The notes below the pieces were generated by a model, which worked only from the letters and a program-made list of their open reading frames with translations, was not told the origin of the DNA and did no database searches. The translations under genes were made by a program, and so were the position numbers. From a virus: a stretch of DNA of 39,252 nt. The stretch lies in UHGV virus genome UHGV-0390443; one strand, 5' to 3'. Every line of letters begins with the position of its first letter. Position 1 is the stretch's first letter. This document shows positions 1 through 37,990 of this stretch, piece by piece.

Positions 1-142
1 TTTTGGGATCATTCAACATCCCGTTTTTGGGATCATTCAACATCCCGTTTTTGGGTATATTCCCGTTTTCGGTAACATTACCGTTTTCGGGTTCATTACC
101 CCCTTCCCGGTTGCCTTTAATGTTCCCGTTTTTGGTTATATT
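1..142. repeat. Origin iterons: perfect 24-bp units CCCGTTTTTGGGATCATTCAACAT (copies at 39224..39247, 39248..19 across the junction, 20..43) followed by degenerate CCGTTTT(T/C)GG copies to about 142
   Basis: Direct tandem repeats visible in sequence; embedded in the initiator coding frame, as in lambda ori within gene O. Confidence 0.75.
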
Positions 143-397
143 AAGAGAGAAAACCCGCACTCTTTTCGTCGCTCCCTTTCTCTCTCCGGTATCTGAAATA
201 AGCCCCATTTTCATGAGCGATATAAGCCCGGCCTGCACGGTTTTTTTATTCAGGCAAGTGTCTTTAACGAGGCGTTCTATGCTGGGGTAGCAGAGGTTAT
301 ATTCATCGGCTCTGTCAGCCATCGAGAGCAGTATGAGCTTTAATGATGAGCTGCCTGGATCTGTCTCCCAGGCCCAATCTGTTGCATGTCTGCTCAT
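1..397 (-). CDS. Replication initiator, lambda O-like, N-terminal part; gene crosses the circular junction and continues in 38810..39252
   Basis: Manual minus-strand translation: ATG at 397..395 preceded by GGAGA (spacing 6); N-terminus MSRHATDWAWETDPGSSSLKLILLSMADRADEYNLCYPSIERLVKDTCLNKKTVQAGLISMLKMGLISDTGERKG (winged-helix-like initiator domain); frame stays open through the iterons (encoding repeated PKNGMLND) to position 1, in phase with ORF 38810..39247; in-frame stop upstream at 412..410. Confidence 0.7.
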   Translation of the reverse strand, partial: MSRHATDWAWETDPGSSSLKLILLSMADRADEYNLCYPSIERLVKDTCLNKKTVQAGLISLMKMGLISDTGERKGATKRVRVFSLNITKNGNIKGNREGGNEPENGNVTENGNIPKNGMLNDPKNGMLNDPK

Positions 398-412
398 GAT
401 TAATCTCCGCTA

Positions 413-612
413 TCAGCTTGAGTGTTGTGGGGAGGAATTAATCATGATCTGCTTAATCTCTGCCCTGATGCGACGGTTTGATTCCATGGTGCACTCAACA
501 CAGTGTCCGTTGTAAACCCAGCGTTCACTGTCATGTCCGTGCTTACATTGTTTTCCGGTGTAATAGCGTTTAAGTCCGCGCTTTGCGGCATCAATACGTG
601 TAATGATTTCCA
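413..612 (-). CDS. Small zinc-finger-like protein (C-x3-H ... C-x2-C), about 66 aa
   Basis: ORF track 413..682; likely start at internal ATG 612 (MEIITRIDAAKRGLKRYYTGKQCKHGHDSERWVYNGHCVEC...); sits between Cro-like gene and initiator. Confidence 0.5.
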
Positions 613-693
613 TGGTAAGCCCTGTTATTAGTATTGGGATTACGGTCATTTTGTGCTGACACAAAAAAAAGATCAACCACATTTGGTTTTTTA

Positions 694-708
694 TTACCTT
701 TGAGGTGC
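694..708. promoter_or_regulatory. Operator-like dyad TTACCTTTGAGGTGC (imperfect member of TTACCT-N4-GGTAA family)
   Basis: Matches family consensus in 14 of 15 core positions; intergenic, upstream of zinc-finger gene on minus strand. Confidence 0.45.
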
Positions 709-709
709 G

Positions 710-742
710 AATAGATATGAAAAGACCGCCGGATGGCGGTCT
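710..742 (-). terminator. Putative intrinsic terminator after Cro-like gene (tR1-like position)
   Basis: Stem AGACCGCC/GGCGGTCT (723..742) with loop GGAT; minus-strand downstream tract TTTCATAT. Confidence 0.45.
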
Positions 743-1148: not shown

Positions 1149-1733
1149 ATGAAAAGTATCCAGGACGTCCGCAGGCAAAATCTCAACGACTTGATCGACC
1201 GTGAATTCAATGGTGTTCAGACGCGGATGGCAGAAAAACTTGGAACTCAGGCAAATCTGGTAAACCGCTGGGCTCTTGGCAAGAAGGTTATCGGCGACCA
1301 GGTTGCGCGAAAAATTGAAGCTGCCGCCAATAAACCCCGTAACTGGCTTGATATCGATCGCTCGCTTTCTCAGGAAGGTTTTCAGCCTGTCGGCCCAAGC
1401 GACATTGGTCAGCTGGCGGCTCACAACCTGGAACGCTGGATGAGCGAAAGCCGCGACCTTTCAACACAGGGAAAACTTCACCGCGCATCCGGCGTCGCCC
1501 AGGTGACAATCAGCCGCCTGTTAAACAATGAGGTCAGCGTTTCCATTTCCACCCTGGAGAATGTTGCATCCGCATTCGGGCGTCACGGCTATGAATTACT
1601 GATTCACCCGCACGACCCTGCGACCATCAACTATGACCGCTCGCGCTACGCATTGTTACCCGAAACCGAGAAAGCAAAGATCGAAAGTTACATTGAATTT
1701 GTCATCAACCAGAACGAAAAAAACAAACAATAA
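1149..1733 (+). CDS. Phage repressor-like regulator with two HTH modules (CII/XRE-like N-terminal HTH plus second HTH); no LexA-like peptidase domain evident
   Basis: 194-aa ORF; motifs QTRMAEKLGTQANLVNRWALGKK and LHRASGVAQVTISRLLNNEVSVSISTLENVASAFG; CI-like position (divergent from Cro-like gene, followed by terminator). Confidence 0.65.
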   Translation: MKSIQDVRRQNLNDLIDREFNGVQTRMAEKLGTQANLVNRWALGKKVIGDQVARKIEAAANKPRNWLDIDRSLSQEGFQPVGPSDIGQLAAHNLERWMSESRDLSTQGKLHRASGVAQVTISRLLNNEVSVSISTLENVASAFGRHGYELLIHPHDPATINYDRSRYALLPETEKAKIESYIEFVINQNEKNKQ

Positions 1734-9263: not shown

Positions 9264-11804
9264 TCATTTTTTTACATTGCCATTTTCAATGGCTAAAATT
9301 CTCTTTTCCATATTATCAATTCTCTCCCAGCATTGCTGAATTGATTTAACAATAGGCGGGATGAATTCATCGTAACCAAGTGAGTAAACATCATCCCCAC
9401 CATTTTTCAAGTGATGCTGTAGTCCACCGAACTCAACACCTAATTCTTCACACAGTTTCAATACGTCCTGTGCAATAAACCAGTGATGGTATCGTTGACG
9501 TTTTTTACTGCCGTCAGGAGTTTTCTGCACTACTTCAAGATATTTTTCTTCGACATTCTCAATAGCTGATATAGTAATTCCATCAACATCTCGTTCTACT
9601 TTTTTTGGTACAATTCTTGTTTTTTCAATAACATCAACATAATCATCACGCATATCCCAGCGACCATCGACAGGACGAAGCCCAAGGATAAATTCAATCC
9701 CCAGCAAGGTATCTCGGATATCTGTTTTATCACGCGCATCAGATCTGTTTTGCACAGTTCCATATACATATGTCGTTGTGGAAGAATTGCCAAGCTGCAC
9801 CTGGTTACTTCCAGACACCCTTGCATCATTGCCAACAGTTGTTGTGTTGGTAAGTGATGATGTGCTTTCCCCTGATTGAGTTAATCTACCTGAATTATGT
9901 CCAATAGCCGTGTTTAATGCGCCGGTTGTATTTGTGACAAGAGAGCCAGACCCGATTGCAACGTTACTGCTTCCCGATGTTGTTCCTTTTAATGCCTGCT
10001 GTCCAACCGCAACATTATTATCACCCGTTGCTGCTATAAGTGCCATGTGACCAATAGAAACGGTAAATGAACCTAGCGTTTGAGTTTCACCGCATGCCCC
10101 ATAACCAATTACAACAACATTATCTGTAATTGTTGACTCGGTTGCCGCTCCAGCACCAATAACAACGCTTTCATTCCCGGCAAGATTCTTGCGCATTGCG
10201 AACATTCCAATGCCAACATTATCATGCCCAGTCCCTGTTCCTGCAGCCTCCGCAGCACCAAGACAGTTTCCTGCTCTGTAGCCAACCATGGTGTTATTTG
10301 AACCAATAGAGAAGTCTCCGGCAAAAGAGCCTACGTATACACTATTAGACTGTGAGTAATCTCCAGGATTTCCATTCGCCCGATATCCTACTGCAACTGT
10401 ATAAATAGTATCTGGAGCCTCAGCCATGGCCTCAAAGCCAACCCCAACGTTATATCTACCGCCCTTAACTTTTTCTCCTGCACCAAGTCCGAAGAATGAG
10501 TTATAGCTCCCGGTTGTTAGCCACTCGCCAGCAACAGAACCTACAGCAGTGTTTCCTGTTCCAGTACATCGATACAAAGTCAGGAAGCCAACTCCGGTAT
10601 TATTATTTCCTGAAATATTACTCATCAATGATTTTGACCCAATGGCAGTATTGTTAACACCATCGGTCAGATCCTGTAACGCTCGCGGGCCAAATGCTGT
10701 ATTATCGTAACCCTTTGGCGCTGTTGTTGGATCTGGTAACTCAGGGGTTAGTTTTTCACCACCACCACCATTGGCACAAAGATTGTAAGATCGAATAAAT
10801 TCAGCCACTGGCCCAAGTTTTAAATAACCATTGGCAATATTAATTCTGACACTTACATTAACTGAGCTACCAGGAGCTTCTATTGTCCTGTCATCAACCC
10901 AGGTAAAACTCTGTGGTATCCCGTCATAAGTTAATGTCACATCTCCTTTATCATTATAATTATAGAACAATGTATAACGCTCATTTATAGATTCAGAACC
11001 TGATGATCCTCCTCTCCTCCACCACTCTGCATTATCAAAAATAAGTAATCCCGGACCATAATATTTAGCTTTCTGTCCCAAAATCATAGGGCTTGATAAT
11101 CTCCATACCCCCTCAGGAACATATATATTGCTACTTATTCTTTCAGCATTATTAAAAGCAGTATCACATAGCTCGTCACCACCTTCTTTAGCTCCAAAGT
11201 CCAGAACACTGACAGTATCCCGCATCTTATCCTGGAACGTTCGATATACTGCTCCAGAACCATACTGAATAAACCAACCAAAACCACCAACAACCCCGGC
11301 GATTGCAGCATCGACATAATTACGCATTGAGCGATTATTTACAGCGTCCTGCTCAAGTGATGGATCTGCAAGGTTAGAAATTCTGTTTTGCTTTGCATCG
11401 TAATATTTTGCAAGCAAAGATGGTTTCATCAATGCACGTCTGAACCATCCAAAACATTGCTGGATCAGCATCGTCAGATAGTCAAAGGCATCTTCATGCA
11501 CCTCGGGGAAAAATTTTCCCTGATTACGAAGATCAGTCTCCTGCACCACATCAAGCACACGATCTATCGTAATTCGCCATCCAGCAGCAAGCGGCGACGG
11601 AAGAACAACAGAACCGCCACTATAAGTGCCCGCCCCAGTTACCATATAACCGGTATCCAGAACCAATTCTGTTACGTTCCCGTTCAGGTCAGACACCTGA
11701 ACAACCAGGTCGGATTTTTTGAAAATACGGAAGGTGTACGGGAATGATGTCGTAATGCCGTTACCGGTGTATTCGTTGTGGTCAACTTCGGTTGAGACCG
11801 TCAT
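9264..11804 (-). CDS. Tailspike / tail fibre with Gly-rich beta-helical repeats and C-terminal peptidase S74-type intramolecular chaperone domain
   Basis: 846 aa; central repeated NTA-x-G motifs; C-terminus SDARDKTDIRDTLLGIEFILGLRPV...DEFIPPIVKSIQQC typical of auto-cleaving chaperone domains. Confidence 0.8.
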   Translation of the reverse strand: MTVSTEVDHNEYTGNGITTSFPYTFRIFKKSDLVVQVSDLNGNVTELVLDTGYMVTGAGTYSGGSVVLPSPLAAGWRITIDRVLDVVQETDLRNQGKFFPEVHEDAFDYLTMLIQQCFGWFRRALMKPSLLAKYYDAKQNRISNLADPSLEQDAVNNRSMRNYVDAAIAGVVGGFGWFIQYGSGAVYRTFQDKMRDTVSVLDFGAKEGGDELCDTAFNNAERISSNIYVPEGVWRLSSPMILGQKAKYYGPGLLIFDNAEWWRRGGSSGSESINERYTLFYNYNDKGDVTLTYDGIPQSFTWVDDRTIEAPGSSVNVSVRINIANGYLKLGPVAEFIRSYNLCANGGGGEKLTPELPDPTTAPKGYDNTAFGPRALQDLTDGVNNTAIGSKSLMSNISGNNNTGVGFLTLYRCTGTGNTAVGSVAGEWLTTGSYNSFFGLGAGEKVKGGRYNVGVGFEAMAEAPDTIYTVAVGYRANGNPGDYSQSNSVYVGSFAGDFSIGSNNTMVGYRAGNCLGAAEAAGTGTGHDNVGIGMFAMRKNLAGNESVVIGAGAATESTITDNVVVIGYGACGETQTLGSFTVSIGHMALIAATGDNNVAVGQQALKGTTSGSSNVAIGSGSLVTNTTGALNTAIGHNSGRLTQSGESTSSLTNTTTVGNDARVSGSNQVQLGNSSTTTYVYGTVQNRSDARDKTDIRDTLLGIEFILGLRPVDGRWDMRDDYVDVIEKTRIVPKKVERDVDGITISAIENVEEKYLEVVQKTPDGSKKRQRYHHWFIAQDVLKLCEELGVEFGGLQHHLKNGGDDVYSLGYDEFIPPIVKSIQQCWERIDNMEKRILAIENGNVKK

Positions 11805-11908
11805 GTTAAATCTCCAGATAGTCGCAGCACCCGTTGCGCCGCATATCTGGTTATTCTATTACCTGAAAAACCACATATGGATAGAAAGACTATAAATACC
11901 AATAGATA

Positions 11909-13370: not shown

Positions 13371-13580
13371 ATGGGATTTTGGTTCGCTCGTACAAAAACG
13401 AGGGATAATGCACCCAGCCCTCAGGCAAAAAATGCAGAAGTTCCGGCGTCAGCGCAGGTTAACAAGCGTGGTGGAGTATATATCTCATCACAGCAAATTT
13501 CTGAGCTTCCTGAGGTTAAGGAGATGCGTCGTCTCGCTGCTGCAATTGTTAAACAGGATCTTGCCACTGTAAGGAAGTAG
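13371..13580 (+). CDS. Small soluble hypothetical protein (69 aa), first gene of a two-gene moron operon
   Basis: ORF with strong RBS GAGGAGGAG; stop overlaps start region of the membrane protein gene. Confidence 0.55.
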   Translation: MGFWFARTKTRDNAPSPQAKNAEVPASAQVNKRGGVYISSQQISELPEVKEMRRLAAAIVKQDLATVRK

Positions 13581-14446
13581 TGTTGCTAGCTCTTCTAATT
13601 ATCCCAATCCTGGTTAGCGGTTATATTATGATAACCGCTAACCAGTATCATTATTTCCGTTTATACCGACACGAAGGCCAGCTTCTTTATATGAAAGTAG
13701 CGGCACTAGGTACATATTGCCTTGTTGCATCAGTAATAATTGCAGCCGCTATAAAATATAAATGGCCTGATTTTCACCTAGTTCACGATATGGTGGAAAC
13801 TTTTAATGTAACATCAAAACCAGAAACAGATAGAATTTACATGTGGCTGCTTCTTCTCTCAGCCACATCCATTTGCTTCTCTTTGTGTTATGTGTCTGTT
13901 GTGTGGGTGAAAGATTTTCTTCTTGGTTGTTTTTATAAACGTGATATTTACGAGCAAAAAACAGAGGCAATGAAGGCCAGAGTACTGCGAAAAACTTACT
14001 CGCAAGGTTCTTTAGACTTACTATTGCTTGATGCTATTGAATCGGATCCTAAACGACCAATGCTGATTACTTTATCATCAAACAAAGTGTATGTTGGAAT
14101 AATAAATGGTTCTGGTGAACCAACGGAAAATCAGGGTCCGCATCAGCACATATCTTTTGTTCCTTTAATGTCAGGATACAGGAACAAAGAAAACTTATCT
14201 GTCACATTCACTAATGCTTATCCAGGAGAAATACAGGTCAAGCGGACTGCAGCAATAAGAGGAATTAGCAGAAAGAAAGTGCCAGGACTTGAGATCATGG
14301 TGTCTATTGACGAAATAAGTTATATATCATGGTTTGATTTTGAAGTATATAAAGCAACAAATAACAAAGTAGAATCCAGGGGGCACGTTATTCGTGTTAC
14401 CAAAAATGGAAGAAATATATATCAAAGAAATAGCAAAAAAGAATAG
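13580..14446 (+). CDS. Membrane protein with about 3 N-terminal TM helices and a ~170-aa C-terminal soluble domain; function unknown
   Basis: 288-aa ORF, low GC; hydrophobic segments LLALLIIPILVSGYIMITA, VAALGTYCLVASVIIAAAI, IYMWLLLLSATSICFSLCYVSVVWV; start (GTG 13580 or TTG 13583) uncertain. Confidence 0.55.
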   Translation: MLLALLIIPILVSGYIMITANQYHYFRLYRHEGQLLYMKVAALGTYCLVASVIIAAAIKYKWPDFHLVHDMVETFNVTSKPETDRIYMWLLLLSATSICFSLCYVSVVWVKDFLLGCFYKRDIYEQKTEAMKARVLRKTYSQGSLDLLLLDAIESDPKRPMLITLSSNKVYVGIINGSGEPTENQGPHQHISFVPLMSGYRNKENLSVTFTNAYPGEIQVKRTAAIRGISRKKVPGLEIMVSIDEISYISWFDFEVYKATNNKVESRGHVIRVTKNGRNIYQRNSKKE

Positions 14447-14447
14447 C

Positions 14448-14472
14448 CCGCGCCGCGGGCTTTTTTGTGTCT
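14448..14472 (+). terminator. Rho-independent terminator after membrane protein gene
   Basis: GCCCGCG-CC-GCGGGC followed by TTTTTTGT. Confidence 0.75.
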
Positions 14473-14512
14473 GCGGACTCCCGCCCGGGCGGCGGTGGCA
14501 TTCGTTAAAAAC

Positions 14513-14531
14513 AAGGCCGCGAAAGCGGCCT
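14513..14531 (-). terminator. Putative terminator for the convergent minus-strand gene
   Basis: AGGCCGC-GAAA-GCGGCCT; minus-strand downstream TGTTTTTAAC. Confidence 0.5.
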
Positions 14532-14543
14532 GTGACATGTCAC
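14532..14543. repeat. 12-bp perfect palindrome GTGACATGTCAC (copy 1 of 3; others at 31882..31893 with one mismatch and 34147..34158)
   Basis: Exact string seen three times, with shared 14-bp context CGTGACATGTCACA in two copies. Confidence 0.6.
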
Positions 14544-14544
14544 G

Positions 14545-14994
14545 CTACTTGCGAAATCTTTCTTTACCCTTCCAGCCAGTAGATGTTAGTTCAGGATGAA
14601 TGGTTCCCAATATAAAGCCAACCATAGCGGAGCGAGGATCTTCTATTTTATCCGTTAATTCTTCGGCATAACTCACAGGCAACCAAGCAACAAGATCACC
14701 AATCCTCAGCTTTGGTCCTTTGCTGTAAGATGAATCGGCAATAACAAAAAATCCACCATCAGCTGAGCACACCTTCAGCATTGCCCTTTGTCTTCCAGAA
14801 TCCAGCAAAACTGGCTGTTCCCCACTGGGACCAGGTATGATGATGGCTGGCATTGGTTTATTGGCTGAAAGGCTTGTGTCAAGATACTTACACGCATACT
14901 CAAAAGCTGAAAAGTTATCCTTAAAGATAAGAGGTTGAATTTTATTGCTAACCTCCTTACCACCGATTAATCTGTTGATCATCTTCTTGAACAT
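14545..14994 (-). CDS. Hypothetical cytoplasmic protein (about 149 aa)
   Basis: ORF track 14545..15003; ATG 14994 preferred (RBS AGGTGA, spacing 5). Confidence 0.5.
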   Translation of the reverse strand: MFKKMINRLIGGKEVSNKIQPLIFKDNFSAFEYACKYLDTSLSANKPMPAIIIPGPSGEQPVLLDSGRQRAMLKVCSADGGFFVIADSSYSKGPKLRIGDLVAWLPVSYAEELTDKIEDPRSAMVGFILGTIHPELTSTGWKGKERFRK

Positions 14995-15006
14995 AAAGGT
15001 CACCTA

Positions 15007-27908: not shown

Positions 27909-28610
27909 TTATTTGCCATAGAGCACTTCGGCCGCACTACGCTGGCCTTCATTACCACCGGTGACCATGCCATCTTCAGACATCGCCTTTCCGATTTTCA
28001 CGAACGTTTTGACCAGATCAGGGTGATTACCCAGTCCGGTGGTGTTCAGATATTCTTTGAGTTCAGGTGTCCCGAACTGGTCAAGCGCACGCTGTGCGGC
28101 GCTAAGGTTAGAAATCAACTTGTCGCCACCGATTTCTTTGTCAGCTTTTACATCCGCAGCCCACTGCTCGGTTGTTTTCTGCCAGGCTTCTGCCTGGCGC
28201 TGCTGAACACCTGCCAGAATCTTCGGATAAGCATCAACCAGCTTTTGCGCTTGCTCGTTGGTCAGGTTTAGTTCTCGCGCCACCGGCTCGAATTCCTTCA
28301 ACGCTTCTGTATCCAGCTCTACGCCTTCGGCAGCCTGAAACTCGTACTTCTCAGGCGCACCCTCTGGTTTATCGCCGCCCTTTTTTTCATCCTGCTTATC
28401 GTTTTCAGGCTTTTTGTCATCAGCAGGTTTATCGCCATCAGCAACAGGTTGTGGCTTATCACCTTCCGGTTGTGATGGATCACCAACTGGAGCAGGGTTA
28501 TCACCTGCAGGCGCTGACGGTTCTGACGCAGCCGGAGCTGCTCCACCATCGACTGGTTGCTCATTGCAAAGACGGCGATACAGCAAACGCTCAAATAAAT
28601 TCATGATCAC
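27909..28610 (-). CDS. Scaffolding protein
   Basis: 233 aa, low-complexity Pro/Asp/Lys-rich N-terminal half, helical C-terminal half; between portal and capsid genes. Confidence 0.7.
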   Translation of the reverse strand: MIMNLFERLLYRRLCNEQPVDGGAAPAASEPSAPAGDNPAPVGDPSQPEGDKPQPVADGDKPADDKKPENDKQDEKKGGDKPEGAPEKYEFQAAEGVELDTEALKEFEPVARELNLTNEQAQKLVDAYPKILAGVQQRQAEAWQKTTEQWAADVKADKEIGGDKLISNLSAAQRALDQFGTPELKEYLNTTGLGNHPDLVKTFVKIGKAMSEDGMVTGGNEGQRSAAEVLYGK

Positions 28611-28903
28611 TCCTGTTCACTGGCCTCTTTGGCCATCTTCAAATACTGTTCAGGGCAATGCGCCATAACGCGCTGAAACAGTTCCAGCGCCAGATTGCGT
28701 TGCCCCTCATTAAATGCCATTGCCATAGCGTCCATCGGTGAGATAGCGGAAAACACACGGCCTTTCTCCAGCACCGACCAGACAACGCGACGCCCCTGTT
28801 CACTGCTCATGACAAAGCGAATGTCATCAATTTCACGCTGTGCCATGTCACATTGCTTACGGGCGTTTTCTTCTTTCAGTTGATCATCTTCGTAATCTGT
28901 CAT
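28607..28903 (-). CDS. Hypothetical head assembly protein
   Basis: 98 aa, coupled between portal and scaffold genes. Confidence 0.5.
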   Translation of the reverse strand: MTDYEDDQLKEENARKQCDMAQREIDDIRFVMSSEQGRRVVWSVLEKGRVFSAISPMDAMAMAFNEGQRNLALELFQRVMAHCPEQYLKMAKEASEQE

Positions 28904-30800: not shown

Positions 30801-30868
30801 ATCAATGACTCCGTACGCAATTAAATTATTACCAATTTAACCACATATGATTTATTTATCGTAGATAG

Positions 30869-31227: not shown

Positions 31228-31304
31228 GTGGCATTAGCTCAGTTGGACAGAGCAACCGCCTTCTAAGCGGTTGGTCGCAGGTTCGAATCCTGCATGCCAC
31301 GCCA
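31228..31304 (+). tRNA. tRNA-Arg (anticodon UCU), with encoded CCA
   Basis: Manually folded cloverleaf: acceptor GTGGCAT/ATGCCAC, D-stem GCTC/GAGC, anticodon stem ACCGC/GCGGT with loop CTTCTAA, T-stem GCAGG/CCTGC with TTCGAAT loop. Confidence 0.85.
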
Positions 31305-31877: not shown

Positions 31878-31895
31878 CACCGTGGCATGTCACAA

Positions 31896-31967: not shown

Positions 31968-33443
31968 TTAAGCATAAGGGTCATAATCCGTTATGGCCCT
32001 TCCCTGCTGGCTTTGCTGTCCTGGTATATTTATGCGTTTCGAGACCGGGAAAGCAAACGTCAGCAGTAGCGCATCTCCTTTACCAGGAGAACGCCCAAGA
32101 CGCTCTTTGATATCTTCCTTCGGTTCGATAACGATTTTACCGTCCACACGAACTTTGTACTCTGCCGCCGACAGGTCGTCTGCAGTTTCCTGGTCATCCA
32201 GCATGCCGCCCAGCCTCAGCCATGTCTTACATGAGTTGAACATCTCCCCACGCTTGTTAAGCATCTGCGGGTCAGTGGACGCACCGCCGAACGGAACAAG
32301 TTGCCATGTACGTCCCCAGCCATCACCGATTGACTTCAAACCGGTTCCATAACCGAAGTCGATGAACACCGCGTCAGCCTGATACTGGTCTTCAAAGTCA
32401 GCGATACGCTTCGCCATAATCAGATCGTCGGTGGTCTTGTTACCAGTCCATAGCACCTTACTGTGCAGCCCCTGCCGCAGGTATATCACAGCGTCATCAA
32501 CGCCGGAGTATGCCGGGTCAACGCCGATTATCACCGGAGCATGTGCAACCTGCGCAGCGGTTACCACCCGTTTCATTGCCTCGTCAGTAAGGCCGGTAGG
32601 GATAAACTGCAATTCAGATGCATCCGGGAATATGCCGCGCACACGGATTTTAACGAAGTCGCTGTCTTCCCCGTAGTCATCAACCCATTTCTGCAACTGC
32701 TGTTTGTTAGTGCCTTCCACCGTCCGGCTGTCAATCTGCGCAGTTTTCCAGCGGTGTTTATATTTGCGGAAACATTCGCGGAAACGCCCGGTGTTACGTG
32801 TAGGGTTTCCGAATGCCACCCAGATAATCTCAGTGTCTTCGTCCGTCAGCGCACCCTCTGCTACCTCCCACACCAGATCGGCAATGTTGGATGCTTCGTC
32901 GAATACCACGATGATGCGTTTGCGCTCGTTGTGTAGTCCGGCGAATGCCTCAGTGTTGTGCTCAGACCAGGGGATTGCGTCAGCTCGCCACCGCTTGTCG
33001 TGCCCAGGGTCATTGCTGTACATCGCGGTAGCGGTACAGGTAAACCAGTCTTTCGTGATAGCAAGGTTCGACCACTTGATAATTTCCGGCCAGGTCTTCG
33101 TTCGTAGCTGGTTGTCGGTGTTGGCGGTCACCACGACCTTACAATCCTCGCAAGTGGACATGCCCCAGTTGATCAGCATTGAGATGAATGCGGATTTACC
33201 AATACCGTGACCAGAAGCACGTGCCAGCATAAGCGGCTGATATCGCGTCTCTGGATTCTGCAGGTGATCACGTATCTCTCGGAACGCATCGGCCTGCCAC
33301 TGACGTGGACCGGTGGCATGTGCCAGTTCAGTACCCTCTTCCCCCCACGGGAACGCATAGAGGGCATAGCCAAGCGGATCGTGAGTGAACCCTGCAATAT
33401 CCTCGATTAACTGCTCTTCAGGAGATAATGCTGTATCTGTCAC
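31968..33443 (-). CDS. Terminase large subunit
   Basis: 491 aa; Walker A-like ARASGHGIGKS; nuclease-domain acidic residues in C-terminal half; overlaps small subunit gene. Confidence 0.9.
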   Translation of the reverse strand: MTDTALSPEEQLIEDIAGFTHDPLGYALYAFPWGEEGTELAHATGPRQWQADAFREIRDHLQNPETRYQPLMLARASGHGIGKSAFISMLINWGMSTCEDCKVVVTANTDNQLRTKTWPEIIKWSNLAITKDWFTCTATAMYSNDPGHDKRWRADAIPWSEHNTEAFAGLHNERKRIIVVFDEASNIADLVWEVAEGALTDEDTEIIWVAFGNPTRNTGRFRECFRKYKHRWKTAQIDSRTVEGTNKQQLQKWVDDYGEDSDFVKIRVRGIFPDASELQFIPTGLTDEAMKRVVTAAQVAHAPVIIGVDPAYSGVDDAVIYLRQGLHSKVLWTGNKTTDDLIMAKRIADFEDQYQADAVFIDFGYGTGLKSIGDGWGRTWQLVPFGGASTDPQMLNKRGEMFNSCKTWLRLGGMLDDQETADDLSAAEYKVRVDGKIVIEPKEDIKERLGRSPGKGDALLLTFAFPVSKRINIPGQQSQQGRAITDYDPYA

Positions 33444-34036
33444 TGATTGCCATCCTGACGTTCTTTCAGTCTCTTCCTGGCTGCCGCTATGCGATCAGCA
33501 ATTGTCACATTCACATTAACATCCAGGCGTTCTTTGAATGCGTTGACGTCGACGTGCTTACCAATCAGTTCGAGGTTCTTCACCTTGTCAGGCCATTTAA
33601 TTTTTTTGAGGATTGTCTCTATCGAATCCTCGTTCATGTTCATGATGGTCGATGACAGATCAAAGCCACTAAGCGTAGTGCGCCAGATTTTCGGCCACTC
33701 ACGGATTGGTTTAAGGCTCCCATCGTCGTTGAGGATATCGATCACGTCCATCTGGTCGATCTCCACCAGGCGCATGAGAACGTAATCAGCACTGACGCGC
33801 ATTCGTTTGTTGCGCTCCTCCATCAACTCGGCAATCCGTTTTTGAATGCGTTCATCGCGCATCATGACACTGGCTTTAACTGCCGCTGTATTTGGGGAGA
33901 ATCCTGCGTTAATCGCTGCCTGAGTCTGGTTTTCAGGCGTTTTGATGTATGACTGGCAATAAGCCTCCTGCATTGCTGTGAGCGGCTTAAATTGCGTTGA
34001 TTTGCGTTTATAGGTTTTAGGTTCAGCAGGCATCAT
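33440..34036 (-). CDS. Terminase small subunit
   Basis: ORF track 33440..34114; start at MMPAEPKTYKRK (34036) preferred because a minus-strand terminator hairpin lies at 34078..34105 and the conserved LTAMQEAYCQSY region begins ~19 aa later. Confidence 0.7.
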   Translation of the reverse strand: MMPAEPKTYKRKSTQFKPLTAMQEAYCQSYIKTPENQTQAAINAGFSPNTAAVKASVMMRDERIQKRIAELMEERNKRMRVSADYVLMRLVEIDQMDVIDILNDDGSLKPIREWPKIWRTTLSGFDLSSTIMNMNEDSIETILKKIKWPDKVKNLELIGKHVDVNAFKERLDVNVNVTIADRIAAARKRLKERQDGNQ

Positions 34037-34077
34037 AACCACCGTGGTAATAGTTACCGTTGTGGTAATAGTACCAT

Positions 34078-34105
34078 GCAAAATAAAGCCGCCATAGTTG
34101 GCGGC
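34078..34105 (-). terminator. Rho-independent terminator between early genes and the late operon
   Basis: Stem GCCGCCA/TGGCGGC with loop; minus-strand downstream TTTATTTTG. Confidence 0.6.
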
Positions 34106-34154
34106 AGTATTCAAAACACATCAAATTCATCATGCATAATCTACTCGTGACATG

Positions 34155-34496
34155 TCACACTATTAATTTCGTTTCATGCCAGCCTTTAGTCACCCAGCAT
34201 TGCGAGTCACCATTGCACGGGCATGAATTAACTGGAACTCTCTCGCCGCACTTACCGCAACGTTTTCTGCTGATCGATTTTATACGCCCGCGCACGCGTG
34301 CATCATCCTGGCGGATCAGTAACGCTATATACTCACCAAATTCGTAAGGCGCACGCCCGGGGCGACGCGTGGCACAGTTACGCTCCAGCATTTCAATTTC
34401 CTGAGCATCAAGCACAATTTCCAGCTTACGCACACCAGATGCAGCTTGTCTGGCTCTCTGAGCGGCTTTGCGCTCTGCTGCTGATTTAGCCATCAA
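34155..34496 (-). CDS. Small DNA-binding-like protein (RHH-like N-terminus plus Cys-rich C-terminus); candidate late-gene regulator
   Basis: 113 aa; MMAKSAAERKAAQRARQAASGVRKLEIVLDAQEIEMLERN then RKRCGKCGERVPVNSCPCNGDSQCW; last gene before late-operon terminator. Confidence 0.45.
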   Translation of the reverse strand: MMAKSAAERKAAQRARQAASGVRKLEIVLDAQEIEMLERNCATRRPGRAPYEFGEYIALLIRQDDARVRGRIKSISRKRCGKCGERVPVNSCPCNGDSQCWVTKGWHETKLIV

Positions 34497-37910: not shown

Positions 37911-37913
37911 GAT

Positions 37914-37990
37914 TTACCTCTGAGGTAATTAAAAACCACATAAGACACGAAATCAATAGATTTTAGAATATTTTATTACCTAACAGGTAA
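37914..37990. promoter_or_regulatory. Two operators TTACCTCTGAGGTAA (37914..37928, overlapping the RBS of 37566..37910) and TTACCTAACAGGTAA (37976..37990)
   Basis: Perfect dyads in the P-like/DUF1064 intergenic region. Confidence 0.55.

What the first reader, a model, noticed from the sequence alone, without database searches (positions are those of the whole stretch)
34036..34496. Candidate late-operon control region: small RHH/Zn-ribbon-like protein, palindrome, terminator and tandem direct repeats immediately upstream of the small terminase gene
On the minus strand the order is: 113-aa gene with RHH-like N-terminus and Cys cluster, then the GTGACATGTCAC palindrome overlapping its stop (34147..34158), an intrinsic terminator (34078..34105), two direct repeats GTGGTAATAGT(T)ACC (34044..34058 and 34062..34075), and the terS start. 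The layout recalls the lambda Q / PR' / tR' arrangement, where late genes depend on antitermination or a dedicated activator.
Basis: inference. Interest (0 to 1): 0.5.

Follow-up and report, generated by a model that had tools for sequence, protein, structure and literature searches.

The report
Early-to-late gene junction of phiV10-like phage
This is the boundary between the early genes and the DNA-packaging genes of a phiV10/epsilon15-type temperate phage: an ordinary terminator and repressor-controlled promoter, preceded by an uncharacterised small DNA-binding protein gene that carries a conserved palindrome, probably its own binding site, at its stop codon in 10 of 13 phages examined from E. 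coli to Vibrio.

Summary
The lambda Q / PR' / tR' reading is not supported.

- **Origin.** The window is a phiV10/epsilon15-like Uetakevirus.
- **The 'tandem direct repeats'.** They are two adjacent copies of a 17-bp inverted repeat, ATTACC-N5-GGTAAT. It occurs 15 times in the genome (1.2 expected), including classical operator positions at PL and PR. The epsilon15 GenBank record annotates it as repressor-binding. The two copies follow an extended -10 (TGGTACTAT), and the second covers the terS start codon.
- **The hairpin.** It is a conserved intrinsic terminator ending the early-right operon.
- **The 41-nt spacer.** It is the remnant of a 70-aa ORF that is intact in 25 of 82 relatives, not a promoter.
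- **The gene.** It encodes 112 aa with a ribbon-helix-helix fold plus a Cys4 module (PHROG 536; epsilon15 gp49 / N15 gp46). No function has been tested. It coexists with true Q genes in ZF40 and N15.
- **New observation.** GTGAC-NN-GTCAC sits on or beside this gene's stop codon in 10 of 13 phages examined. Extra copies lie elsewhere in each genome; in this window they abut terminators.

I infer the protein binds the palindrome as a repressor or roadblock-type boundary factor. This is untested.

The parts
34155..34493 (-). Gene for a 112-aa protein (stop included). It has an N-terminal basic helix, a ribbon-helix-helix core (strand about residues 24-29, helices 30-42 and 52-75) and a C-terminal Cys module (C79, C82, C91/C93, C99). 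It belongs to PHROG 536 and is the homologue of PhiV10p55, epsilon15 gp49 and N15 gp46.
34147..34158 (.). Perfect 12-bp palindrome GTGACATGTCAC overlapping the stop codon. It is the inferred binding site of the 112-aa protein.
   Evidence: It forms an invariant 13-column block in an alignment of five divergent phages whose flanks diverge. GTGAC-NN-GTCAC lies on or next to the homologue's stop codon in 10 of 13 phages examined. Of 80 IMG/VR loci holding TGTGACATGTCACA, 20 carry the gene, 12 of them with the palindrome at the stop.
34106..34146 (-). Variable 41-nt spacer, the remnant of a 70-aa ORF. The mini-ORF MHDEFDVF* matches the C-terminus ...YDEFDGL* of the intact gene. The only sigma-70-like match (-10 CATGAT) lies here.
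   Evidence: In 25 of 82 relatives an intact 70-aa ORF sits between the palindrome and the same terminator. epsilon15 and PAT1 have a different 23-nt spacer. Promoter-like match 34158..34129.
34080..34105 (-). Intrinsic terminator ending the early-right (replication/nin-like) operon: GCCGCCA-ACTA-TGGCGGC followed by TTTATTTT.
   Evidence: Conserved in epsilon15 and PAT1 with a loop change only. Annotated as a terminator in epsilon15 and phiV10.
34068..34076 (-). Extended -10-like element TGGTACTAT (hexamer TACTAT at 34073..34068). It is the inferred terS promoter and has no -35 element.
   Evidence: Direct reading. In relatives TG and TA..AT are kept while the n position and hexamer position 3 vary: TGATACTAT, TGTTACTAT, TGGTATTAT, and TGATAGTAT in BUCT554. 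The geometry matches PL, where -10 AATTAT overlaps the operator ATTACCTCAACGGTAAC by two bases. Inference only; no transcript data.
34053..34069 (-). Operator O1, ATTACCACAACGGTAAC. It holds the 3' part of the first direct repeat and the 5' part of the second.
   Evidence: Member of the 15-copy ATTACC-N5-GGTAAT family. The homologous epsilon15 site 12..27 is annotated as protein_bind 'repressor'. Variation among relatives is confined to the N5 spacer.
34035..34051 (-). Operator O2, ATTACCACGGTGGTTAT. It covers the Shine-Dalgarno-like GGTGG and the first two bases of the terS ATG.
   Evidence: The same arrangement (second operator over SD/ATG) occurs at the nin-region promoter, site 37913. It is conserved in epsilon15, PAT1 and BUCT554.
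33440..34036 (-). Small terminase gene terS (198 aa, stop included), the first gene of the packaging/late block.
   Evidence: Pfam Terminase_2, E = 1e-29. PHROG 51. epsilon15 annotates the equivalent ATG.
14532..14543 (.). Second exact copy of the palindrome. It lies 1 nt after the stop of the last minus-strand gene of the structural block and 1 nt before a terminator hairpin.
   Evidence: Conserved at the same place in phiV10 (19493) and epsilon15 (19517), although the gene upstream differs.
31882..31893 (.). One-mismatch copy (GTGGCATGTCAC) between the bidirectional terminator after terL and the stop of the convergent gp49/66-like gene.
   Evidence: Perfect in phiV10 and epsilon15 and in 29 of 38 related loci.

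Best explanation
The region is the junction between the delayed-early rightward operon (cro-like gene, replication genes, nin-like genes) and the packaging/head genes of a phiV10/epsilon15-type temperate podovirus. It is a composite of three independent modules.

**A. Gene plus site.** The last early gene encodes a 112-aa ribbon-helix-helix protein with a C-terminal Cys4 (probably zinc) module. Its stop codon is fused to a 12-bp palindrome, GTGAC-N2-GTCAC. I infer the palindrome is the protein's own binding site, probably bound by two RHH dimers on inverted 7-bp subsites TGTGACA/TGTCACA.

**B. Terminator.** An intrinsic terminator ends early transcription. It is separated from the palindrome by the remnant of a lost small ORF.

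**C. Promoter and operators.** terS has a promoter-operator cassette: a -35-less extended -10 (TGnTAYTAT) followed by two tandem 17-bp immunity operators (ATTACC-N5-GGTAAT). The second operator lies over the ribosome-binding site and ATG.

**How it works.**
- In the lysogen, the prophage repressor occupies O1/O2, as it does the same operators at PL, PR, the nin, portal and tail-fibre promoters. This keeps terS-terL silent.
- After induction, early transcripts stop at the terminator, and terS-terL is transcribed from its own weak promoter.
- The RHH-zinc protein accumulates late in the early phase and binds the palindrome at the 3' end of its own gene. It also binds the two other copies at the ends of the terS-terL/gp49-66 unit and the structural unit, each abutting a terminator. 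It most likely acts as a repressor or roadblock-type boundary factor that limits read-through across these junctions. It does not act as a Q-like antiterminator.

**Status of each step.**
- Shown: sequence features, conservation, gene-palindrome linkage, operator family, fold.
- Inferred: protein-palindrome binding, use of the promoter, and direction of the regulatory effect.
For: **Identity and synteny**
- 95-98% DNA identity to O157 typing phages 9 and 10, PAS61 and phiV10; gene order.

**Operators**
- 15 sites versus 1.23 expected in the window, and likewise in phiV10.
- 9, 8 and 11 exact TTACC-N5-GGTAA sites in the window, phiV10 and epsilon15. None in N15, ZF40, Yersinia, Vibrio or lambda. 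The motif therefore belongs to the Uetakevirus immunity system, not to the RHH family.
- Sites flank the repressor gene. At PL, TTGACA-17-AATTAT has the operator overlapping the -10. At PR the operator lies in the -35/-10 spacer. The same holds at the nin promoter TCGATA-16-TAAAAT.
- The epsilon15 record annotates these sites as repressor-binding, including 12..27 before terS.
- Among 82 relatives, changes fall in the N5 spacers while the half-sites are kept.
- BUCT554 keeps TGaTAGTAT + O1 + O2 + ATG even though a umuD-like gene precedes it.

**Terminator**
-.

**Spacer is an ORF remnant**
-.

**Protein**
- RHH fold, marginal RHH Pfam hits in some members, conserved Cys.

**Gene-palindrome linkage**
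- On or next to the stop codon in the window, epsilon15, PAT1, Klebsiella ST11-OXA245phi3.2, ZF40 (after the stop, so not a coding constraint), N15, phiKO2, Kpn74, Vibrio PE002B and BUCT554.
- 1 to 3 exact copies per gene-bearing genome versus about 0.04 expected; none in lambda.
- 20 of 80 IMG/VR loci with TGTGACATGTCACA carry the gene, 12 with the palindrome at its stop.

**Terminator adjacency**
- In this window the three intergenic copies lie 42, 1 and 5 nt from terminators, versus 5.7% of random positions.
- In IMG/VR contexts, 15 of 76 versus 43 of 800.

**Repressor-like placement elsewhere**
- The palindrome lies 12 to 30 nt upstream of the next gene's ATG in N15, E. coli type-2 prophages and Vibrio K233.
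- It lies next to a TTGACT -35-like hexamer in several IMG/VR contexts.
- By established knowledge, RHH proteins (Arc, Mnt, CopG, omega, antitoxins) are almost all repressors.
Against: - No binding, transcript or genetic data exist for any member of the family, as far as the searchable literature shows.
- The assignment of the 17-bp motif to the CI-like repressor rests on position and on an in-silico GenBank annotation.
- The terS promoter lacks a -35 and was not called by the consensus scan. It may need an activator.
- Terminator adjacency of the palindrome is not seen in N15 or ZF40. It could simply reflect location at gene ends.
- Site 31882 carries a mismatch here and in 9 of 38 relatives, so constraint on that copy is imperfect.
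- A roadblock placed before a terminator has no obvious selective logic when the terminator is already strong.
- The protein is the only regulator-type gene in the delayed-early operon, and no other late regulator is evident. That keeps a positive role in late expression open.
Confidence: 0.5

Rival explanations
1. First reader's model in functional form. The RHH-zinc protein is the late-gene switch of Uetakeviruses. Made last in the early operon, it binds the palindromes next to the three terminators that interrupt the rightward path (after its own gene, after terL, after the structural genes). It lets RNA polymerase read through them, or it activates the weak terS promoter. Late expression would then depend on it, as lambda late expression depends on Q.
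For: - The gene occupies the Q position, last in the early-right operon.
- No Q-like or other late regulator is found in phiV10 or the window.
- All three intergenic palindromes lie within 42 nt of terminators on this path.
- The late promoters lack -35 elements.
Against: - There is no conserved promoter or pause element between the gene and the terminator; the spacer is an ORF remnant.
- Palindrome-to-terminator distance varies: 41, 23, about 240 nt, or no terminator at all.
- At the terL terminator the palindrome lies downstream of the U-tract in the forward direction.
- The family coexists with genuine Q in ZF40 and N15 and is not next to late genes there.
- Each late block has its own operator-bearing promoter.
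- No RHH antiterminator is known (own knowledge).
Confidence: 0.15
2. The palindrome is not this protein's binding site. It would be a module-boundary or recombination junction, a 3'-UTR RNA element, or the site of a host or other phage protein. The gene-palindrome linkage would then reflect co-inheritance of a cassette end.
For: - Mosaic junctions coincide with the palindrome. Downstream of site A the sequence switches between terminator/terS, a 70-aa ORF or a umuD-like gene.
- Upstream of site B three different genes end at the palindrome in the window, phiV10 and epsilon15.
- In all three window sites the order is stop codon, palindrome, terminator with respect to the adjacent gene.
Against: - Linkage persists down to about 30-35% protein identity and across podo-, sipho- and myoviruses, while every flanking base has changed.
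- Extra copies occur far from the gene, including inside coding regions and upstream of promoters.
- As RNA it would form only a 4-bp stem.
- 12 bp is too short for homologous exchange.
Confidence: 0.12
3. The C-terminal half is a diverged DksA/TraR-type zinc finger that contacts the RNA polymerase secondary channel. The protein would be an RNAP-binding factor tethered to DNA by its RHH domain.
For: - A profile search against PDB sequences gives TraR and YbiI as top hits (E = 0.02), aligning CxxCG..(L/I)PE...G...C and the preceding helix.
Against: - The E-value is not significant.
- No member hits Pfam zf-dskA_traR even at E = 1.
- The second CxxC of the family is absent.
Confidence: 0.05
4. 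The tandem repeats before terS are a packaging (pac) or terS-recognition site rather than transcriptional operators.
For: - They lie immediately upstream of terS.
- The large terminase is P1 PacB-like, implying headful packaging.
Against: - The same 17-bp motif occurs 15 times around the genome, including PL and PR.
- A pac site should be unique.
Confidence: 0.03

Closest known systems
epsilon15 / phiV10 annotated regulatory sites (GenBank AY150271.2, NC_007804.2)
   Same: - Same gene order: gp49/p55, terminator, operator, terS.
- The epsilon15 record already marks the terminator and a 'repressor' binding site at 12..27 before terS, plus the same motif at PL, before gp3 and before the tailspike gene.
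   Different: - Neither record annotates the GTGACATGTCAC palindrome or its three copies.
- The gene product is listed as 'hypothetical' or, generically, 'transcriptional regulator'.
- phiV10 RefSeq starts terS at a TTG that would read through the terminator.
Lambda Q / PR' / tR' late antitermination module
   Same: - The regulator-type gene is last in the early-right operon.
- A strong intrinsic terminator lies between it and the late genes.
   Different: - There is no Q-family protein.
- There is no conserved promoter or pause site between the gene and the terminator.
- The late gene has its own operator-controlled promoter downstream of the terminator.
- The family coexists with real Q genes in ZF40 and N15.
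P22 Arc/Mnt and plasmid omega (pSM19035) ribbon-helix-helix repressors
   Same: - Small RHH DNA-binding proteins of mobile elements that bind short symmetric or repeated subsites. Omega binds 7-bp heptads WATCACW in direct or inverted arrays.
- Mnt has an extra C-terminal oligomerisation domain.
- The half-site TGTGACA resembles an omega heptad (own knowledge of these systems).
   Different: - Here the C-terminal module is a Cys4 cluster.
- The conserved site sits at the 3' end of the protein's own gene rather than in its promoter.
- Additional copies abut terminators.
- No binding data exist.
P1 C1 repressor with operators dispersed over the genome
   Same: - A single immunity repressor motif is found at many promoters around the genome, including in front of late-function genes (P1 from own knowledge).
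   Different: - The Uetakevirus operator is a symmetric 17-mer, whereas P1's is asymmetric.
- It lies directly at the structural-gene promoters rather than at a late-activator gene.
P2 Ogr / P4 Delta zinc-finger late activators
   Same: - Small cysteine-containing phage transcription factors.
   Different: - Different Cys spacing.
- An RHH domain is present.
- The site is GTGAC-N2-GTCAC rather than TGT-N12-ACA at -55.
- A Yersinia P2-like phage carries this family in addition to a small regulator gene in the ogr position.

Membership tests
Ribbon-helix-helix (CopG/Arc/MetJ) DNA-binding superfamily | N-terminal beta-strand followed by two helices (strand-helix-helix fold) | tested here: met
Ribbon-helix-helix (CopG/Arc/MetJ) DNA-binding superfamily | Significant match to a curated RHH sequence model | tested here: not met
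   The query has no Pfam hit above threshold. Only 2 of 57 family members touch RHH_5 or RepB-RCR_reg, and 1 touches RHH_1, at E = 0.013 to 0.07. NCBIfam LexA-regulated protein YbfE gives E = 0.052.
Ribbon-helix-helix (CopG/Arc/MetJ) DNA-binding superfamily | Dimer forming a two-stranded antiparallel ribbon that reads the major groove of a symmetric or repeated site | not testable with these tools
   Only a monomer could be modelled. The conserved palindrome is compatible with this feature but binding is untested.
Lambda Q-type late antitermination module | Q-family antiterminator protein | tested here: not met
   The 112-aa protein has no Q-family hit in Pfam, PHROG or NCBIfam. Seven further early-right proteins have no antitermination PHROG.
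Lambda Q-type late antitermination module | Constitutive promoter with a Q-binding element and promoter-proximal pause between the Q gene and the terminator | tested here: not met
   There is only a 9-of-12 consensus match. It lies in a non-conserved spacer that is an ORF remnant.
Lambda Q-type late antitermination module | Intrinsic terminator upstream of the late genes | tested here: met
   Hairpin plus U-tract at 34105..34080.
Lambda Q-type late antitermination module | Late transcription dependent on the protein | not testable with these tools
   This needs genetics or RNA-seq.
Immunity-repressor operator family of Uetakeviruses | 17-bp inverted repeat ATTACC-N5-GGTAAT shared with PL/PR operators that overlap core promoter elements | tested here: met
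   O1 and O2 each have one mismatch to the consensus. The family has 15 sites versus 1.23 expected. Sites at PL and PR overlap the -10 or the spacer. The motif is annotated as repressor-binding in epsilon15.
Immunity-repressor operator family of Uetakeviruses | Bound by the CI-like repressor | not testable with these tools
   Only positional inference and the depositors' in-silico annotation are available.
Intrinsic (rho-independent) terminator | G+C-rich hairpin immediately followed by a U-run | tested here: met
   Seven pairs (6 G-C), loop 4, then UUUAUUUU. Conserved in epsilon15 and PAT1.
DksA/TraR C4 zinc-finger family | CxxC-N17-CxxC finger matching Pfam zf-dskA_traR | tested here: not met
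   None of 57 members hits the family at E <= 1. The second CxxC is absent. The only support is a profile hit to TraR/YbiI at E = 0.02.
P2 Ogr/Delta late activators | About 70-80 aa protein with CX2C-X22-CX4C and no other domain | tested here: not met
   The pattern is CX2C-X8-10-C-X5-7-C after an RHH domain, in a protein of 112 aa.

The most novel reading that the evidence does not exclude
The RHH-zinc protein and its GTGAC-N2-GTCAC sites would constitute a previously unrecognised, widespread phage system. In it, a DNA-bound factor placed beside intrinsic terminators decides whether transcription crosses operon boundaries. In Uetakeviruses, which lack Q, this would be the missing early-to-late switch: a DNA-site-tethered modulator of termination unrelated to N, Q, Ogr or Lpa.
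Probability: 0.15. Interest if true: 0.8.

Novelty: new variant of a known kind. Interest (0 to 1): 0.42.

Why it matters
- **Uetakevirus regulation.** How epsilon15/phiV10-type phages time late gene expression is not known. These phages are used as O157 and Salmonella detection and typing tools, and they act in serotype conversion. This analysis suggests each late block has its own -35-less promoter under direct control of the immunity operator. That would be an organisation closer to P1 than to lambda.
- **A testable protein-site pair.** An uncharacterised protein family (154 clusters at 50% identity, present in podo-, sipho- and myoviruses of enterobacteria, Vibrio and Aeromonas) now has a candidate cognate DNA site that can be tested at once by EMSA or ChIP.
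- **Possible broader significance.** If the protein modulates transcription at terminator-flanked boundaries, it would be a new kind of phage operon insulator or switch. If it is a plain repressor, the finding is a modest annotation gain.

Tried and rejected
1. **phiV10 genome end as a cos/pac end.** The phiV10 record ends inside the palindrome. This was rejected as a physical end because the record was simply opened at the stop codon of the last gene.
2. **Palindrome as CRP, LexA or Ogr-type site.** Rejected because spacing and half-sites do not fit (own knowledge).
3. **Palindrome as a -35 element of a PR'-like promoter.** Rejected for lack of conservation and because the spacer is an ORF remnant.
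4. **RHH protein binding the ATTACC-N5-GGTAAT repeats.** Rejected because that motif is absent from ZF40, N15, Yersinia and Vibrio phages, which carry the gene.
5. **Covariation between beta-strand residues and the palindrome's central dinucleotide.** It looked suggestive. It was abandoned because BUCT554, a Uetakevirus with a homologous gene, has centre AG instead of AT. Only the arms are constant.
6. **TraR/DksA relationship.** Not confirmed.
7. **Searches that gave nothing useful.**
   - Literature search for the palindrome and for RHH-zinc late regulators.
   - The epsilon15 genome paper is not held.
   - BFVD fold search returned only a fragment of the same family.
   - The afdb50 library was unavailable.
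   - The search for related loci with the alignment failed for lack of a conserved block. With the single protein it returned only 97-100% identical relatives.
8. **ZX5 paper.** It deals with the repressor and antirepressor, not this gene.
Full report
**What the window is.** The 700 bases around the finding are 95-98% identical to E. coli O157 typing phages 9 and 10, vB_EcoP_PAS61 and phiV10, all Uetakevirus. The window's minus strand corresponds to the phiV10 plus strand. Gene order on that strand is as follows:
- a cro-like gene, replication genes (DnaT-like, P-like) and a nin-like block (DUF1064/resolvase-like, Eae/Ead/Ea22-like, DUF551, ASCH);
- the 112-aa gene, then terS and terL;
- a convergent gp49/66-like gene, then portal, head and tail genes.

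The 112-aa gene is therefore the last gene of the rightward early operon. It lies directly before the first packaging gene.

**Check of the observation.** Every element is present where stated.
- *Gene.* The ORF is 34155..34496. The biologically likely start is ATG 34493, giving 112 aa as in hundreds of database homologues. It overlaps the stop of the upstream ASCH-like gene (ATGGCTAA).
- *Palindrome.* GTGACATGTCAC at 34147..34158 overlaps stop TGA.
- *Terminator.* GCCGCCA-ACTA-TGGCGGC followed by TTTATTTT, at 34105..34080.
- *Direct repeats.* The 11-nt exact repeats lie at 34044..34054 and 34062..34072.
- *terS.* It starts at ATG 34036 (Terminase_2, E = 1e-29).

**The direct repeats are two immunity-type operators.** Read as inverted repeats, the region contains two sites 18 bp apart: ATTACCACAACGGTAAC (34069..34053) and ATTACCACGGTGGTTAT (34051..34035).
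- *Over-representation.* The pattern ATTACC-N5-GGTAAT, with up to 2 mismatches, occurs 15 times in the window versus 1.23 expected. No shuffle out of 100 reaches 15. phiV10 gives the same result.
- *Positions.* Sites lie on both sides of the HTH repressor gene (1149..1733, plus strand):
  - At PL, the perfect -35 TTGACA is followed after 17 bp by AATTAT, whose last two bases begin the operator ATTACCTCAACGGTAAC.
  - At PR, an operator fills the -35/-10 spacer.
  - After the replication genes, an operator fills the spacer of TCGATA-16-TAAAAT.
  - Further sites precede the gp3/portal block and the tail-fibre gene.
- *Existing annotation.* The epsilon15 GenBank record marks exactly this motif as 'protein_bind: repressor'. 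This includes 12..27, immediately before terS.
- *Lineage specificity.* The motif is absent from N15, ZF40, Yersinia, Vibrio and lambda genomes. It therefore belongs to the Uetakevirus immunity system.
- *Pattern of variation.* Among 82 close relatives, substitutions fall in the N5 spacers and between the sites, not in the half-sites.

**An inferred terS promoter.** Just 5' of O1 lies TGGTACTAT (34076..34068), an extended -10. Its hexamer overlaps O1 by two bases, the same geometry as at PL. Relatives show TGATACTAT, TGTTACTAT, TGGTATTAT and, in BUCT554, TGATAGTAT. TG and TA..AT are kept while the non-critical positions drift. I infer a -35-less terS promoter with a start near 34061. O1 would cover the start site and O2 would cover the SD and ATG. 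The promoter is inference only, since no transcript data exist.

**The spacer is not a promoter region.** The only sigma-70-like match between the gene and the terminator uses the palindrome's GTGACA as -35 and CATGAT as -10 (9 of 12).
- In 25 of 82 relatives, a 70-aa ORF (MPKIRYDL...YDEFDGL*) lies between the palindrome and the same terminator.
- The window's 41-nt spacer retains its last codons (...HDEFDVF*). It is therefore a deletion remnant.
- epsilon15 and PAT1 have a different 23-nt spacer.
- Klebsiella and Enterobacter relatives have a LexA-box promoter and a umuD-like gene there.

A conserved PR'-like promoter is therefore excluded.

**The protein.** It has no Pfam or NCBIfam family. 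It belongs to PHROG 536, labelled 'transcriptional regulator'.
- *Size of the family.* 726 clusters at 90% identity and 154 representatives at 50% identity among 1.84 billion proteins.
- *Conserved features (57-sequence alignment).* A basic N-terminal AERK..QR.R segment, a short hydrophobic strand, PY..EY..LI, and C79-x2-C82 ... C(91/93) ... C99.

**The palindrome travels with the gene.** GTGAC-NN-GTCAC overlaps or abuts the homologue's stop codon in ten phages:

| Phage | Note |
|---|---|
| This window | overlaps the stop |
| epsilon15 | overlaps the stop |
| PAT1 | overlaps the stop |
| Klebsiella ST11-OXA245phi3.2 | overlaps the stop |
| ZF40 | 2 nt after a TAA stop, so not a coding constraint |
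| N15 | overlaps the stop |
| phiKO2 | overlaps the stop |
| Kpn74 | overlaps the stop |
| Vibrio PE002B | overlaps the stop |
| Enterobacter BUCT554 | overlaps the stop |

- *Partial or negative cases.* It lies 226 nt downstream in Vibrio K233. It is degenerate (ATGACATGGCAC) in an Aeromonas phage. It is absent beside the gene in a Yersinia P2-like phage, which instead has a one-mismatch copy, an exact copy and a further half-site in tandem 3.4 kb away.
- *What varies.* The arms are constant. The centre dinucleotide varies (AT, TG, AG, AC).
- *Copy number.* Gene-bearing genomes hold 1 to 3 exact copies versus about 0.04 expected, and lambda holds none.
- *Alignment.* In an alignment of five divergent contexts, the 13 columns TGTGACATGTCAC are invariant while the flanks diverge.
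- *Reverse test.* Of 80 IMG/VR loci retrieved solely because they contain TGTGACATGTCACA, 20 encode the family within the stretch held. In 12 the palindrome sits at the stop codon.

I conclude that gene and palindrome form a conserved pair. I infer the palindrome is the protein's binding site. Two RHH dimers on inverted 7-bp subsites, as for omega repressor, would fit, but this is unproven.

**Other copies in this phage.**
- *14532..14543 (exact).* It lies 1 nt after the stop of the last structural-block gene and 1 nt before a terminator hairpin.
- *31882..31893 (one mismatch here).* It is perfect in phiV10, in epsilon15 and in 29 of 38 relatives. It lies 4 nt from the bidirectional terminator between terL and the convergent gp49/66-like gene.
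- *28840..28851 (one mismatch).* It lies inside a coding region.

The three intergenic copies are 42, 1 and 5 nt from terminator-like sites, whereas 5.7% of random positions lie within 45 nt of one. In IMG/VR contexts, 15 of 76 palindromes versus 43 of 800 random positions have a terminator-like site nearby. N15 and ZF40 copies do not. There the sites lie 12 to 30 nt before the next gene's ATG, upstream of a promoter-like TTGACG-17-TAGAGT in the N15 anti-repressor locus, or inside genes.

**Mechanism.**
- *Well supported.* The region is a junction of three modules: gene plus palindrome; terminator; and the terS promoter with two operators. The prophage repressor motif covers the terS promoter and start codon.
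- *Inferred.* The RHH-zinc protein binds the palindromes. RHH proteins are almost always repressors, and in other phages the site sits just upstream of the next gene. I therefore favour a repressor or roadblock role that limits read-through out of the early operon and reinforces unit boundaries.
- *Positive role.* An antitermination or activator role is less likely, at about 0.15, for four reasons:
  - spacing to the terminator is not conserved;
  - one site lies downstream of its terminator;
  - every late block has its own promoter;
  - the family coexists with Q in ZF40 and N15.
- *Why it cannot be excluded.* No other late regulator is visible in Uetakeviruses.

**Comparison and novelty.**
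- The terminator and operators are already annotated in epsilon15.
- The Q/PR'/tR' analogy fails its defining tests.
- The new elements are the gene-palindrome pair, its breadth across phage types, and the placement of extra copies beside terminators in Uetakeviruses. I found no description of this in the searchable literature.
- I rate the finding a new variant of a known kind: an RHH-type phage regulator with an unusual site placement. Interest is moderate, because the function remains untested.

Noticed in passing
window 11866..11878, 30836..30848, 37931..37943 (minus strand): A third conserved element, (A)TATGTGGTT(T/A)(T/A)(T/A), lies 30-45 nt downstream of the operator-bearing promoters of the tail-fibre, gp3/portal and nin units. 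A further GGTAAT half-site follows it. It is also present in epsilon15 before gp3. It is absent, or only partial (CGGTGGTTATG), before terS. It could be a leader or late-promoter element.
   Followed up: partly
window 37913..37929 and 34035..34051: At both the nin-region unit and terS, the second of two operators lies exactly over the Shine-Dalgarno sequence and ATG of the first gene (GAGGTAAATCATG and GGTGGTTATGATG). The half-site GGTAA(T) may double as part of the ribosome-binding site.
   Followed up: no
L008 (phiV10 NC_007804.2) 41..715; window 34114: RefSeq annotates phiV10 terS from a TTG, giving 224 aa. That start lies upstream of the terminator hairpin, so the reading frame runs through the hairpin and both operators. 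epsilon15 and typing phage 10 use the ATG equivalent to window 34036 (198 aa), which fits the regulatory anatomy. The long form is probably an over-extension.
   Followed up: partly
window 31228..31304 (+): A tRNA-Arg (anticodon TCT) lies on the strand opposite to the late genes, between the gp49/66-like gene and the gp3/portal promoter region.
   Followed up: no
window 14440..14531: Two back-to-back terminator hairpins (GGCCGCTTTCGCGGCC and GCCCGCGGCGCGGGC) lie between the end of the minus-strand structural block and a convergent 288-aa plus-strand gene (13580..14446). The gene ending at the palindrome here (152 aa, 14545..15003) differs from those in phiV10 (p21) and epsilon15 (gp18). The palindrome plus terminator is the fixed point of a variable region.
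   Followed up: partly
L094 (N15) 28550..28561: In N15, one GTGACCAGTCAC copy lies 24 nt upstream of a promoter-like TTGACG-17-TAGAGT. It sits in the locus between gene 33 and the anti-repressor operon (genes 32-30), centred near -66. A second copy lies inside repA (33237).
   Followed up: no
L006 7648..7720 (Yersinia phage vB_YenM_42.18, record 11675..11747): A P2-like phage carries GTGACATGGCAC, GTGACATGTCAC and a further GTGACA half-site in tandem, about 33 bp apart. They lie upstream of a 240-aa gene in the variable region between gene A and the portal gene, next to an SMC-like gene. This region is a known accessory/defence hotspot in P2-like phages (own knowledge).
   Followed up: no
loci L014-L093 (25 of 82), e.g. 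downstream of the gene in type-2 relatives: A 70-aa ORF (MPKIRYDLEDMRDNSANF...CGEDVIFIRGKWEGYLDESFYDEFDGL) is inserted between the palindrome and the terminator in many E. coli prophages. Its SD starts 2 nt after the palindrome. Its function is unknown.
   Followed up: partly
L100-L179 (IMG/VR), e.g. L101, L102, L116, L120, L133: A recurrent context GGTTGACTGT-TGTGACATGTCACA-CCTC places the palindrome directly after a TTGACT -35-like hexamer, about 35 nt before a gene start. It occurs in contigs where the family gene was not seen in the stretch held. It looks like a classical promoter-overlapping operator.
   Followed up: no
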